64,000 nucleotides of DNA from an uncultured Bacilli bacterium (lineage in GTDB: Bacteria; Bacillota_I; Bacilli_A; RF39; UBA660), in contig CALVZO010000016.1 of assembly GCA_944372545.1 (NCBI GenBank), forward strand, positions 21,668-85,667, in the 5' to 3' direction. Both the position numbers and the translations under genes were made by a program. This document shows positions 14,844 to 16,198 of the stretch, one piece after another. The notes below the pieces were generated by a model that worked only from the letters and a program-made list of their open reading frames with translations, was not told the DNA's origin and did no database searches. The number at the start of each line of letters is the position of its first letter. Position 1 is the stretch's first letter.

Positions 14844-14872
14844 TTGCATTTTCTTTATGGTTAGGTTATAAT
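14844..14872 (+). promoter_or_regulatory. sigma-70-type promoter of the tRNA-Lys gene: TTGCAT, 17 nt, TATAAT
   Basis: Read directly; the tRNA 5' end lies about 12 nt downstream of the -10 box. Confidence 0.45.
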
Positions 14873-14884
14873 TCTTATTGTGAT

Positions 14885-15212
14885 GTCTCCTTAGCTCAGT
14901 TGGTAGAGCAACTGACTCTTGAATATTCGGGAGCATATTATAGTAATATAATATTGAAAATCGAGCAAAAACGGTAAACGCTGTGATGCCAATACCGTGC
15001 TAACTTATTAAATTGCGTAAGGTTAATAAGTAGTGTAACGCATAGAGGTTGAATAAATATAATACATCCACGAGTGTTCGACAACCTTTAATAGGTTGAT
15101 AATGTATGCTGAACTATACAGAATAAAATGTATAGAAGTAAATGATAAAAAGCATTTACGATAACAAGTTGTAATCAGTGGGTCTAGGGTTCGAATCCCT
15201 AAGGGGACACCA
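14885..15212 (+). tRNA. tRNA-Lys(CUU) interrupted in the anticodon loop by a 252-nt intervening sequence (exon 1 is 14885..14919, exon 2 is 15172..15212; the spliced product is 76 nt with CCA)
   Basis: Acceptor GTCTCCT pairs with AGGGGAC. D arm GCTCAGTTGGTAGAGC. Anticodon stem ACTGA/TCAGT. The spliced loop is CTCTTAA. T arm TAGGGTTCGAATCCCTA. The overall sequence is close to Bacillus-type tRNA-Lys. Confidence 0.7.
14920..15171 (+). ncRNA. putative small group I (IC3-like) self-splicing intron in the tRNA-Lys anticodon loop, inserted between positions 35 and 36
   Basis: The 5' exon CUCU pairs with intron GGAG (nt 11-14), giving a U·G pair at the splice site. The last intron nucleotide is G. 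The body is densely packed with hairpins, including ATATTATA/TATAATAT, CGGTA/TACCG, AGGTTG/CAACCT, CTATAC/GTATAG and GTAAATG/CATTTAC. There is no ORF. I could not find the canonical P7 G-site motif by eye. Confidence 0.45.
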
Positions 15213-15228
15213 ATTAGATTATAAAAAA

Positions 15229-15265
15229 ACAGGTTAGAGAATATTTTCTAACTTGTTTTTTTATT
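15229..15265. terminator. strong intrinsic terminator: 12-bp stem (ACAGGTTAGAGA / TTTCTAACTTGT) followed by T7, with an A7 run on the other side, so it can act in both directions
   Basis: It ends the tRNA-Lys transcript and the convergent 15279..15926 gene. Confidence 0.6.
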
Positions 15266-16022: not shown

Positions 16023-16098
<76 letters not shown>

Positions 16099-16108
16099 AT
16101 TTATGTTA

Positions 16109-16185
16109 TGGCCCGTTGGTGAAGTGGTTTAACACACATGCCTTTCACGCATGCATTCATGGGTTCAAATCCCGTACGGGTCACC
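16109..16185 (+). tRNA. tRNA-Glu(UUC)
   Basis: GGCCCGTTGGTGAAGTGG...CATGC-CTTTCAC-GCATG...GGGTTCAAATCCCGTACGGGTCACCA. It is near-identical in architecture to Bacillus tRNA-Glu. Confidence 0.85.
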
Positions 16186-16198
16186 AATTAAGTCTTAT

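What the first reader, a model, noticed from the sequence alone, without database searches (positions are those of the whole stretch)
14885..15212. tRNA-Lys(CUU) gene split by a 252-nt structured insertion in the anticodon loop, a candidate group I intron in an unusual host tRNA
The two halves of a tRNA-Lys(CUU) sit 252 nt apart (14885..14919 and 15172..15212). When joined they give a canonical 76-nt tRNA, and the gene has its own promoter and terminator.

Several things point to a small group I ribozyme. The exon ends ...CUCU, and its last U can form the diagnostic U·G pair with an internal guide GGAG 11-14 nt into the insertion (a P1 helix). The insertion ends in G. The start of exon 2 (UAAU) can pair with the P1 loop (P10). 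The 252 nt are packed with short hairpins and hold no ORF.

To my knowledge, bacterial tRNA group I introns are described for Leu(UAA), fMet, Ile(CAU) and Arg(CCU), mostly in cyanobacteria and proteobacteria. A Lys(CUU) host in a low-GC Firmicutes-like genome would be unusual. The implied insertion site is between anticodon nucleotides 35 and 36.

I could not recognise a canonical P7 G-binding core by eye, so the element might be a divergent intron or another ribozyme class.
Basis: partly seen in the sequence, partly recalled or inferred. Interest (0 to 1): 0.8.

Follow-up and report, generated by a model that had tools for sequence, protein, structure and literature searches.

The report
Phage-type group I intron in tRNA-Lys
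A bacterial lysine tRNA gene is interrupted in its anticodon loop by a 252-base intron that almost certainly splices itself out; it is related to introns of bacteriophage genes, standard search models miss it, but this kind of element is already catalogued.

Summary
14885-14919 and 15172-15212 join into a canonical 76-nt tRNA-Lys(CUU). An intron-less gene in a related uncultured Bacilli genome is 76/76 identical to the joined exons, and an independent metagenome assembly carries the identical 252-nt insertion.

The insertion is a genuine group I intron, although Rfam RF00028 gives no hit even at E<=10. Eleven other uncultured gut Bacilli carry the same intron at the same site. DNA homologs split terminase, helicase and neck genes in Staphylococcus, crAss-like, Clostridioides and Lactobacillus phages, including the JCL1032 TerL intron reported as self-splicing.

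Comparative analysis supports P1 to P9.1: 96-98% of pair positions are paired against 24-42% in slid controls, and 25/68 and 38/55 pairs show compensatory changes. P1 has an invariant U.G at the 5' splice site, every copy ends in G, and P7 has the canonical bulge next to an invariant G-C pair. A P7.1 hairpin makes it IA-like.

Novelty is modest. Williams (2020) already lists a "Lys.4Ug" tRNA intron type, and a 2026 survey showed splicing of 35/36 introns. What is new is this phage-related lineage, distinct from the IC-type lineage that occupies the same tRNA-Lys(CUU) site in other phyla.

The parts
14844..14872 (+). Putative sigma-70 promoter: TTGCAT (14844-14849), 17-nt spacer, TATAAT (14867-14872), about 12 nt upstream of the tRNA 5' end
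   Evidence: Read from the sequence. Not listed by the consensus scan because the -35 hexamer matches only 3 of 6. Inference.
14885..14919 (+). tRNA-Lys(CUU) exon 1 (tRNA positions 1-35, ending ...CUCU; last base is U-1)
   Evidence: 76/76 identity of the joined exons to the intron-less allele in L089.
14920..15171 (+). Group I intron, 252 nt, no ORF, IA-like phage-related lineage
   Evidence: Covariation-supported fold. nhmmer and CM homology to phage introns including JCL1032 TerL. Rfam RF00028 negative.
14916..14933 (+). P1: exon CUCU (14916-14919) plus intron 1-3 pairs with intron 8-14 (14927-14933). Internal guide GGAG is at 14930-14933. U-1(14919).G11(14930) is the wobble pair at the 5' splice site.
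   Evidence: All four exon-guide pairs invariant, including U.G in 12/12. The next pair occurs as U.G, U-A and C-G.
14935..14954 (+). P2 hairpin (16-23/28-35) capped by a GUAA GNRA tetraloop (14943-14946)
   Evidence: 4 of 8 pairs show double-sided changes. The tetraloop is GUAA in 11 of 12 copies and GCAA in 1.
14961..14966 (+). P3 5' strand (intron 42-47), followed by A-rich J3/4 (14967-14970)
   Evidence: P3 is 100% paired, with 4 covarying pairs across tRNA and phage copies.
14971..14998 (+). P4 (52-57/74-79) enclosing the short P5 (61-62/69-70), with A-rich J4/5 and J5/4
   Evidence: P4 is 98.8% paired with 3 covarying pairs. P5 is 89% paired.
14999..15034 (+). P6 (80-81/114-115 and 84-92/104-112)
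   Evidence: 9 of 11 pairs show double-sided changes.
15038..15044 (+). P7 5' strand (A119, bulged C120, G121-A125). G121(15040)-C190(15109) is the candidate guanosine-binding pair.
   Evidence: P7 is 100% paired. Pair 119-191 occurs as A-U, G-C and C-G. Pair 123-188 occurs as A-U and G-C. Position 120 is always an unpaired C or A.
15045..15068 (+). P7.1 hairpin (126-130/145-149) with a 14-nt loop UGAAUAAAUAUAAU, lying between P7 and P3' (an IA-type feature)
   Evidence: All 5 pairs covary. The loop is invariant in the 12 tRNA copies; among the 8 phage copies one (pCD1602) has an insertion in it.
15076..15081 (+). P3 3' strand (157-162)
15082..15098 (+). P8 hairpin (163-168/174-179) with conserved tandem C-G pairs, a possible receptor for the L2 GUAA loop
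   Evidence: 4 of 5 pairs covary. The receptor role is inferred from known GNRA-helix rules.
15105..15110 (+). P7 3' strand (186-191), preceded by J8/7 AUAAUG
15114..15135 (+). P9 hairpin (195-201/210-216)
   Evidence: 5 of 7 pairs covary.
15138..15159 (+). P9.1 hairpin (219-225/234-240) with conserved loop AUAAAAAG
   Evidence: 5 of 7 pairs covary.
15171..15171 (+). Omega-G, the last intron nucleotide
   Evidence: G in all 12 tRNA-Lys copies.
15172..15212 (+). tRNA-Lys(CUU) exon 2 (positions 36-76, including the encoded CCA)
15223..15263 (+). Putative intrinsic terminator: A-tract, 9-bp stem (15230-15238/15248-15256), T-tract
   Evidence: Read from the sequence. Not listed by the scanner, which needs at least 3 G-C pairs. 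Inference.

Best explanation

Inferred mechanism: the gene is transcribed from its own promoter as a pre-tRNA of about 330 nt. The intron folds into P1-P2, the P4-P6 domain, and the P3-P7-P8 pseudoknotted core with an extra P7.1 hairpin, followed by P9 and P9.1. Exon nucleotides CUCU pair with the internal guide GGAG, placing U35 in a U.G wobble at the 5' splice site. A free guanosine bound at the G121-C190 pair of P7 attacks after U35. The terminal G252 then occupies the same pocket, and the 3'-OH of U35 attacks after G252. The exons are ligated to give the mature anticodon loop CUCUUAA.

What is shown: the exact boundaries, the conserved fold with compensatory changes, and homology to phage group I introns. 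What is inferred: the catalysis itself.

The intron has no homing endonuclease gene. It belongs to a lineage otherwise found in phage protein-coding genes, and it appears to be vertically inherited in a clade of uncultured low-GC gut Bacilli.
For: The joined exons form a canonical tRNA-Lys(CUU) and are 76/76 identical to an intron-less allele.

Twelve orthologous introns from different Bacilli MAGs are 72-98% identical and all have U-1 and omega-G.

On 12 tRNA copies the proposed fold is 97.8% paired, against 24-42% in slid controls, and 25 of 68 pairs have double-sided changes, against 0-4. On 6 tRNA plus 8 phage copies it is 96.0% paired, against 26-40%, and 38 of 55 pairs covary, against 7-15. 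P3 and P7 are each 100% paired with compensatory changes, and a conserved bulge sits beside the invariant G-C pair.

blastn finds 71-87 phage records at 68-83% identity, lying in split TerL, helicase and neck genes, often next to HNH or LAGLIDADG ORFs.

The JCL1032 TerL intron lies in a CDS annotated as a join and is cited as proven self-splicing (PMC6669764). It matches the family profile at E=9e-30 and the core CM at 131 bits, exactly between the two exon ORFs.

The core CM built only from this family picks out, as its only other hits in 211 kb, 9 of the high-GC tRNA-Lys introns; the four of that lineage tested with Rfam RF00028 (L012, L119, L014, L006) all hit it, and two of them are among the 9.

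An independent assembly carries the identical intron. L024 has the intron in the same FolD-RuvB-RuvA-Obg-tRNA synteny at 72-77% flanking identity, while the intron is 82.5% identical.
Against: Rfam RF00028 gives no hit on the window at E<=10, nor at E<=1 on three orthologues tested (L016, L023, L028) or on four phage homologs.

No splicing data exist for this intron.

P5 is only 2 bp, and P10 and P9.0 are weak or not conserved.

Within the 12 tRNA copies, P1, P5 and P7 do not vary, so their support comes from the phage copies and from conformity to the group I consensus.

Whether the genome has another tRNA-Lys(CUU) cannot be seen from 64 kb.
Confidence: 0.88

Rival explanations
1. It is a group I intron by descent but no longer splices, or splices only with a host protein cofactor, so the gene is a tRNA pseudogene or a conditionally expressed tRNA. 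AAG codons would then be read by tRNA-Lys(UUU).
For: No HEG and no splicing data. P5 is minimal and P10 is weak. tRNA-Lys(CUU) is dispensable in principle when tRNA-Lys(UUU) is present (general knowledge). Relatives with an intron-less allele exist.
Against: The ribozyme core is kept under clear structural selection across 12 species, with compensatory changes in nearly every helix. Its sequence identity is higher than that of the neighbouring protein-coding DNA. The exons remain perfect, with the promoter, terminator and CCA intact. A decaying insertion would not preserve pairing at 96-98%.
Confidence: 0.08
2. The insertion is some other structured element, such as a different ribozyme class, a miniature mobile element, or a protein-spliced bulge-helix-bulge type intron, and only resembles a group I intron by chance.
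For: No match to RF00028.
Against: The helices occur in the exact group I order and topology, including the P3/P7 pseudoknot, the U.G at the 5' splice site, omega-G, the bulged P7 and the A-rich J3/4. The family includes an intron annotated as spliced. A CM of its core finds introns that RF00028 recognises. The site is 35/36 rather than the 37/38 BHB position, and the genome is bacterial.
Confidence: 0.02
3. The split is an assembly or binning artefact that joined phage-derived sequence into a tRNA gene.
For: The closest DNA matches outside Bacilli MAGs are in phages.
Against: An independent assembly from another run has the identical insertion. Eleven further MAGs from different studies carry orthologous insertions at the same nucleotide. 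The flanks are chromosomal housekeeping genes in conserved synteny.
Confidence: 0.01

Closest known systems
Bacterial tRNA anticodon-loop group I introns, type 'Lys.4Ug' (Williams 2020, bioRxiv 10.1101/2020.01.27.920355), and the 35/36 introns of PMC13011429
   Same: Same host isotype (tRNA-Lys), same loop position (after the 4th loop nucleotide, i.e. 35/36), U-1 and omega-G, no ORF, about 250 nt. In PMC13011429, 35/36 introns were shown to splice precisely in vitro, and 25 of 28 were classed IA.
   Different: The seed Mpe6.Lys.4Ug is a high-GC IC-type intron without P7.1, apparently in a UUU-anticodon tRNA (loop CUUUU). Our family profile does not match it, nor my high-GC tRNA-Lys(CUU) set. 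PMC13011429 lists no 35/36 intron in Bacilli, and tRNA-Lys is not mentioned in its main text. I could not see the full tables of either study.
Phage group I introns of Gram-positive phages: Lactobacillus phage JCL1032 TerL intron; Staphylococcus phages SA2, F1, ROSA, BE28; crAss-like phages cr118_1, cr6_1, cr131_1, cr7_1
   Same: Homologous ribozyme from P3 to P9.1, 68-78% DNA identity over 70-90% of the intron. Same conserved L7.1 and L9.1 loops and the same ACGAUAACA 3' tail.
   Different: The host gene is a protein-coding phage gene, so P1 and the internal guide differ. Many phage copies carry HNH or LAGLIDADG ORFs. Ours is in a chromosomal tRNA and has no ORF.
Classical IC3 tRNA introns (cyanobacterial/plastid tRNA-Leu(UAA), Azoarcus tRNA-Ile(CAU), tRNA-Arg(CCU), tRNA-fMet)
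   Same: [quoted passage not shown]
   Different: Those are IC3, with no P7.1, the GUAGAGACUA/AGGGAUAGUCC core and a GCGGCGAAAGCCG P9, and Rfam recognises them. Ours has P7.1, a GCAUA/UAUGC P7 and a minimal P5, and RF00028 does not see it.
Subgroup IA phage ribozymes (T4 td, Twort orf142-I2)
   Same: Extra pairing between P7 and P3', phage association, compact size.
   Different: Only one hairpin (P7.1) followed by a 7-nt linker is evident here, not the P7.1 plus P7.2 pair. I ran no direct comparison with td or Twort; this resemblance rests on my own knowledge.

Membership tests
Group I intron | P1 helix formed by the 5' exon end and an internal guide sequence, with a U.G wobble at the 5' splice site | tested here: met
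   Exon CUCU pairs with GGAG. U-1.G is invariant in 12/12. The adjacent pair occurs as U.G, U-A and C-G.
Group I intron | Terminal guanosine (omega-G) at the 3' splice site | tested here: met
   G in 12/12 tRNA-Lys copies. The boundary is fixed by the intron-less allele and by L076.
Group I intron | Conserved core topology: P3-P8 and P4-P6 domains with the P3/P7 pseudoknot, supported by covariation | tested here: met
   96.0% paired against 26-40% in slid controls; 38 of 55 pairs with compensatory changes; P3 100% paired with 4 covarying pairs.
Group I intron | P7 guanosine-binding site: a G-C pair next to a bulged nucleotide | tested here: met
   G121-C190 invariant; C/A120 always unpaired; flanking pair 119-191 occurs as A-U, G-C and C-G; pair 123-188 as A-U and G-C. 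Binding itself is not testable here.
Group I intron | Match to the curated covariance model Rfam RF00028 | tested here: not met
   No hit at E<=10 on 14850-15250, nor at E<=1 on three orthologues or four phage homologs. The model's seeds are all non-bacterial (Williams 2020), and it is reported to miss divergent tRNA introns (PMC13011429). A core CM of this family does reach RF00028-positive introns.
Group I intron | Homology to an intron with demonstrated self-splicing | tested here: met
   JCL1032 TerL intron: nhmmer E=9e-30, CM 131 bits, CDS annotated as a join, cited as proven (PMC6669764). I could not read the primary paper, Riipinen & Alatossava 2004.
Group I intron | Guanosine-dependent two-step transesterification | not testable with these tools
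   Needs in vitro splicing or RNA data.
Subgroup IA | Additional pairing(s) P7.1/P7.2 (or P7.1/P7.1a) between P7 and P3' | tested here: inconclusive
   A P7.1 hairpin with 5 of 5 covarying pairs is present. A second hairpin is not evident; only a conserved 7-nt linker CACGAGU. The subgroup CMs (Group1IntronDatabase) are not available here.
Bacterial tRNA intron type Lys.4Ug (Williams 2020) | Group I intron after the 4th anticodon-loop nucleotide of tRNA-Lys, with U-1 and omega-G | tested here: met
   Site 35/36, U-1, omega-G. But there is no detectable sequence relationship to the seed Mpe6.Lys.4Ug, so it shares the type by position, not by lineage.
Protein-spliced (bulge-helix-bulge) tRNA intron | Short intron, canonically at 37/38, in a BHB motif, in archaea or eukaryotes | tested here: not met
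   The site is 35/36, the insert is 252 nt with a ribozyme fold, and the context is a bacterial chromosome.

The most novel reading that the evidence does not exclude
A phage-borne, IA-like group I intron lineage that RF00028 cannot see moved ectopically from a phage protein-coding gene into the chromosomal tRNA-Lys(CUU) gene of an ancestor of a clade of uncultured gut Bacilli. It has since been inherited vertically without a homing endonuclease. An unrelated IC-type lineage independently colonised exactly the same 35/36 site in Acidobacteriota and Alphaproteobacteria. That would make this tRNA position a recurrent landing site, for example through reverse splicing guided by the CUCU/GGAG pairing.
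Probability: 0.4. Interest if true: 0.45.

Novelty: new member of a known kind. Interest (0 to 1): 0.3.

Why it matters
Annotation: default ARAGORN and Rfam miss this gene, so these genomes would be scored as lacking tRNA-Lys(CUU). RF00028 also misses this phage and tRNA intron lineage in the window and in every family member tested (three orthologues and four phage copies), so surveys that rely on RF00028 undercount group I introns in low-GC Bacilli and their phages.

Evolution: the locus links a chromosomal tRNA intron to introns in phage structural and replication genes. It also shows two unrelated intron lineages at one tRNA site, which bears on how endonuclease-less introns reach new sites.

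It does not change what is known about group I introns or about tRNA-Lys.

Tried and rejected
Rfam: gathering and E<=10 scans of the window found no intron family. An E<=1 scan of four phage loci also found none.

Alternative pairings seen by eye were rejected on the alignments.
- AGAGGUUG (125-132) with CAACCUUU (163-170): positions 126-130 vary and co-vary with 145-149 instead, while 163-167 stays CAACC or CAUCC.
- The P6 loop UGCGU (95-99) with ACGCA (119-123): G96 changes to A with no compensation.
- P10 (UAAU with the P1 loop) and P9.0 are not conserved.

The plain RNAfold MFE structure pairs the intron 5' end with 150-160 and is not the conserved fold.

Viral-contig scan for phage-encoded split tRNA-Lys(CUU): 8 hits, all tandem intact genes, and no family match.

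Of the 120 genome hits to the split-tRNA pattern, 91 were tandem intact tRNA-Lys genes and were discarded.

The family profile does not reach the high-GC tRNA-Lys introns. It reaches the Williams seeds only through the universal P4/Q core.

The 2017 claim of a 'group I intron' in cyanobacterial tRNA-Lys (PMC5733544) concerns inserts of 22-49 nt. These are too short to be ribozymes and I did not count them as precedent.

The supplementary tables of PMC13011429 that list introns per tRNA were not available as text.

Full report
OBSERVATION. Window 14885-14919 and 15172-15212 are the two halves of a tRNA gene separated by 252 nt. Joined, they give a 76-nt cloverleaf that ARAGORN calls tRNA-Lys(ctt), with a 7-bp acceptor stem, the anticodon loop CUCUUAA and an encoded CCA. 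ARAGORN in intron mode also calls the gene on the unspliced sequence. Default ARAGORN and the Rfam tRNA model miss it. The window is a bacterial chromosome of about 25% G+C. FolD, RuvB, RuvA and Obg lie upstream, and tRNA-Ile and tRNA-Glu plus ABC transporters lie downstream. A TTGCAT-17-TATAAT promoter and an A-tract/stem/T-tract terminator flank the gene. I read both from the sequence; the consensus scanner lists neither.

IS IT REAL? I scanned one genome per species with a pattern made only of the exon sequences and any 221-281 nt insert. Ninety-one are tandem intact tRNA-Lys genes. Twenty-nine are tRNA-Lys(CUU) genes split at the same nucleotide. Eleven of the split genes come from uncultured Bacilli, Bacillales or 'Mycoplasma' gut MAGs and carry a low-GC insert of 249-266 nt that aligns end to end with ours at 76-87% identity. 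Locus L089, another Bacilli MAG, has an uninterrupted tRNA-Lys(CUU) that is 76/76 identical to our joined exons and sits next to tRNA-Ile as in the window. L024 shares the FolD-RuvB-RuvA-Obg-tRNA synteny at 72-77% nucleotide identity and also has the insert. An independent Logan assembly (L132) contains the identical 252 nt. All 12 inserts follow a U and end in G. In L076 the insert starts with C, which removes the 1-nt boundary ambiguity and fixes the site at 35/36.

WHAT IS IT? Rfam gives no group I hit on the window, even at E<=10 on 401 nt. However, blastn against phage genomes finds 71-87 records at 68-83% identity covering up to 90% of the insert. The matches lie where genes are annotated in two pieces:
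- TerL in Staphylococcus phages SA2 and F1;
- a neck or tail-completion gene beside an HNH ORF in BE28 and Rosita;
- a DNA helicase in crAss-like cr118_1;
- an ATPase next to an ORF annotated 'intron-encoded endonuclease' in cr6_1;
- the TerL CDS annotated as a join in Lactobacillus phage JCL1032.

A profile of the family matches JCL1032 at E=9e-30, exactly between the two TerL exon ORFs. [quoted passage not shown] Tourasse & Kolsto 2008 (PMC2504315) place B. cereus prophage introns that resemble those of ROSA and JCL1032 in subclasses IA1/IA2.

STRUCTURE. I proposed a fold by hand, guided by Rfam's alignment of the high-GC tRNA-Lys introns, and tested it on tool alignments.

On the 12 tRNA-Lys copies with 8 nt of each exon (alignment A1), 97.8% of pair positions are standard pairs, against 24-42% when partners are slid by 1-3 columns. 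Twenty-five of 68 pairs show changes on both sides, against 0-4 in the slid controls. No shuffle in 500 reached these values. P2, P3, P4, P6, P7.1, P8, P9 and P9.1 all covary. P1, including the U.G at the splice site, P5 and P7 are invariant in this set.

Adding 8 ORF-less phage copies (A2) gives 96.0% paired against 26-40%, and 38 of 55 pairs with double-sided changes against 7-15. P3 is 100% paired with four covarying pairs. P7 is 100% paired: pair 123-188 is A-U in 11 copies and G-C in 3, pair 119-191 occurs as A-U, G-C and C-G, position 120 is always an unpaired C or A, and G121-C190 never changes. That is the arrangement of the group I guanosine-binding site: a G-C pair beside a bulged nucleotide, as in Tetrahymena C262-G312/A263/G264-C311 (the comparison is from my own knowledge).

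Other expected features are present:
- an A-rich J3/4;
- A-rich J4/5 and J5/4;
- a GNRA (GUAA) loop on P2, with tandem C-G pairs in P8 that could receive it (inference);
- a hairpin, P7.1, between P7 and P3' whose 14-nt loop is invariant in the 12 tRNA copies. This is a subgroup IA trait, and the Williams 2020 seed alignment shows it in several tRNA and tmRNA introns.

A covariance model of the core only (P3 to P7', model R1) was searched over 211 kb. It returned the window (173 bits), three phage introns not used in training (JCL1032 131 bits, BE28 104, Rosita 99) and, as its only other hits, nine of the high-GC tRNA-Lys introns. Each of those nine is a full-length match inside the intron on the correct strand. 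The four members of that high-GC lineage that I tested with Rfam all hit RF00028: L012 at 56.1 bits and L119 at 50.1, both above the gathering score of 50, L014 at 49.3 and L006 at 37.7; L014 and L006 are among the nine. This links the family to canonical group I cores without relying on my hand fold.

HOW IT WORKS. This part is inferred from the anatomy and from established group I chemistry. The pre-tRNA folds so that exon CUCU pairs with the guide GGAG. Exogenous guanosine bound at P7 cleaves after U35. G252 then replaces it, and the exons are ligated to give tRNA-Lys(CUU). No endonuclease gene is present. Retention of the fold, with compensatory changes, across hosts whose neighbouring genes are only about 75% identical argues that splicing is under selection.

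COMPARISON WITH WHAT IS KNOWN. Williams 2020 (bioRxiv 10.1101/2020.01.27.920355) raised it to 21 types. Its seed alignment contains Dba165.Lys.2Ug, Mle24.Lys.3Ug and Mpe6.Lys.4Ug, the last at the same loop position as ours. PMC13011429 (mSystems 2026) found 333 tRNA group I introns in 4,934 complete genomes. Twenty-eight of them are at 35/36 and 25 of those are IA. None is reported in Bacilli: one is in Bacillota_A, and tRNA-Lys is not named in the text. The same paper showed precise in vitro splicing of 35/36 introns and noted that RF00028 misses divergent tRNA introns. So neither the host isotype nor the site is new.

What I could not find described is this particular lineage. Our profile does not match Mpe6.Lys.4Ug, and it matches other seeds only through the universal P4/Q core. 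It also does not match my high-GC tRNA-Lys(CUU) set. Two distinct lineages therefore occupy the same site: an IC-type one in Acidobacteriota, Alphaproteobacteria and UASB14, and this phage-related IA-like one in gut Bacilli. I could not read the full tables of either survey, so prior listing cannot be excluded.

VERDICT. The element is a new member of a known kind. Interest is modest. The main value is for annotation, since a tRNA gene and an intron lineage are both invisible to default tools, and as a clean example linking phage and tRNA introns.

Noticed in passing
L006, L012, L013, L014, L017, L036, L044, L048, L066, L069, L075, L088, L096, L099, L102, L106, L116, L119 (intron coordinates): Eighteen high-GC (44-71%) group I introns of 223-274 nt sit at exactly the same 35/36 site of tRNA-Lys(CUU), in Pyrinomonadaceae and other Acidobacteriota, Alphaproteobacteria MAGs and Bacterium UASB14. 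All four tested with Rfam hit RF00028, at 37.7-56.1 bits, but they are not detectably related in sequence to the window's intron.
   Followed up: partly
L002 2501-2705 (crAss-like cr131_1) and L130 1501-1705 (cr7_1): The intron homolog starts within about 20 nt of the end of the annotated TerL CDS (2 nt before it in cr131_1, 19 nt before it in cr7_1). It is followed by about 640 nt with no annotated gene before the portal gene. This suggests a TerL 3' exon that was never annotated.
   Followed up: no
L127 15-137 and 420-647 (Clostridioides phage pCD1602_4); 3 places in the record: A second, partial match to the 3' half of the family profile lies about 280 nt upstream of the full copy, and the record has three matching places. 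This phage carries several introns of the family close together.
   Followed up: no
window 15050-15063, 15145-15152, 15158-15166: Three single-stranded stretches are conserved between tRNA and phage copies despite about 70% overall identity: the 14-nt L7.1 loop UGAAUAAAUAUAAU (altered only in pCD1602), the L9.1 loop AUAAAAA(G/A) and the 3' tail ACGAUAACA (a few substitutions). They are presumably tertiary contacts, but I could not assign partners.
   Followed up: partly
L016, L023, L024, L028, L076, L087, L091, L101, L109, L115, L122, L132: Default ARAGORN reports no tRNA-Lys in any of the 12 intron-bearing loci. Routine annotation would score these genomes as lacking tRNA-Lys(CUU).
   Followed up: yes
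window 45955-46028: tRNA-Thr(GGU) has only 35% G+C with A-U-rich stems. tRNA-Ile(GAU) and tRNA-Glu(UUC) at 16023-16186 have 62% and 51%.
   Followed up: no
window 49295-49385 (- strand): ARAGORN finds a tRNA-Ser(GCU), but the Rfam tRNA model at gathering threshold does not report it.
   Followed up: no
L003 1884-2638 (phage BE28) and L004 1843-2637 (phage Rosita): The HNH-type ORF, mis-annotated as dUTPase in Rosita, ends 40-50 nt inside the full-length core match. The endonuclease ORF therefore sits upstream of P3 and reads into the ribozyme core.
   Followed up: partly
L023 1096-1295: T-box leader-like match at 71.8 bits, below Rfam's gathering score of 93, in a related Bacilli MAG.
   Followed up: no
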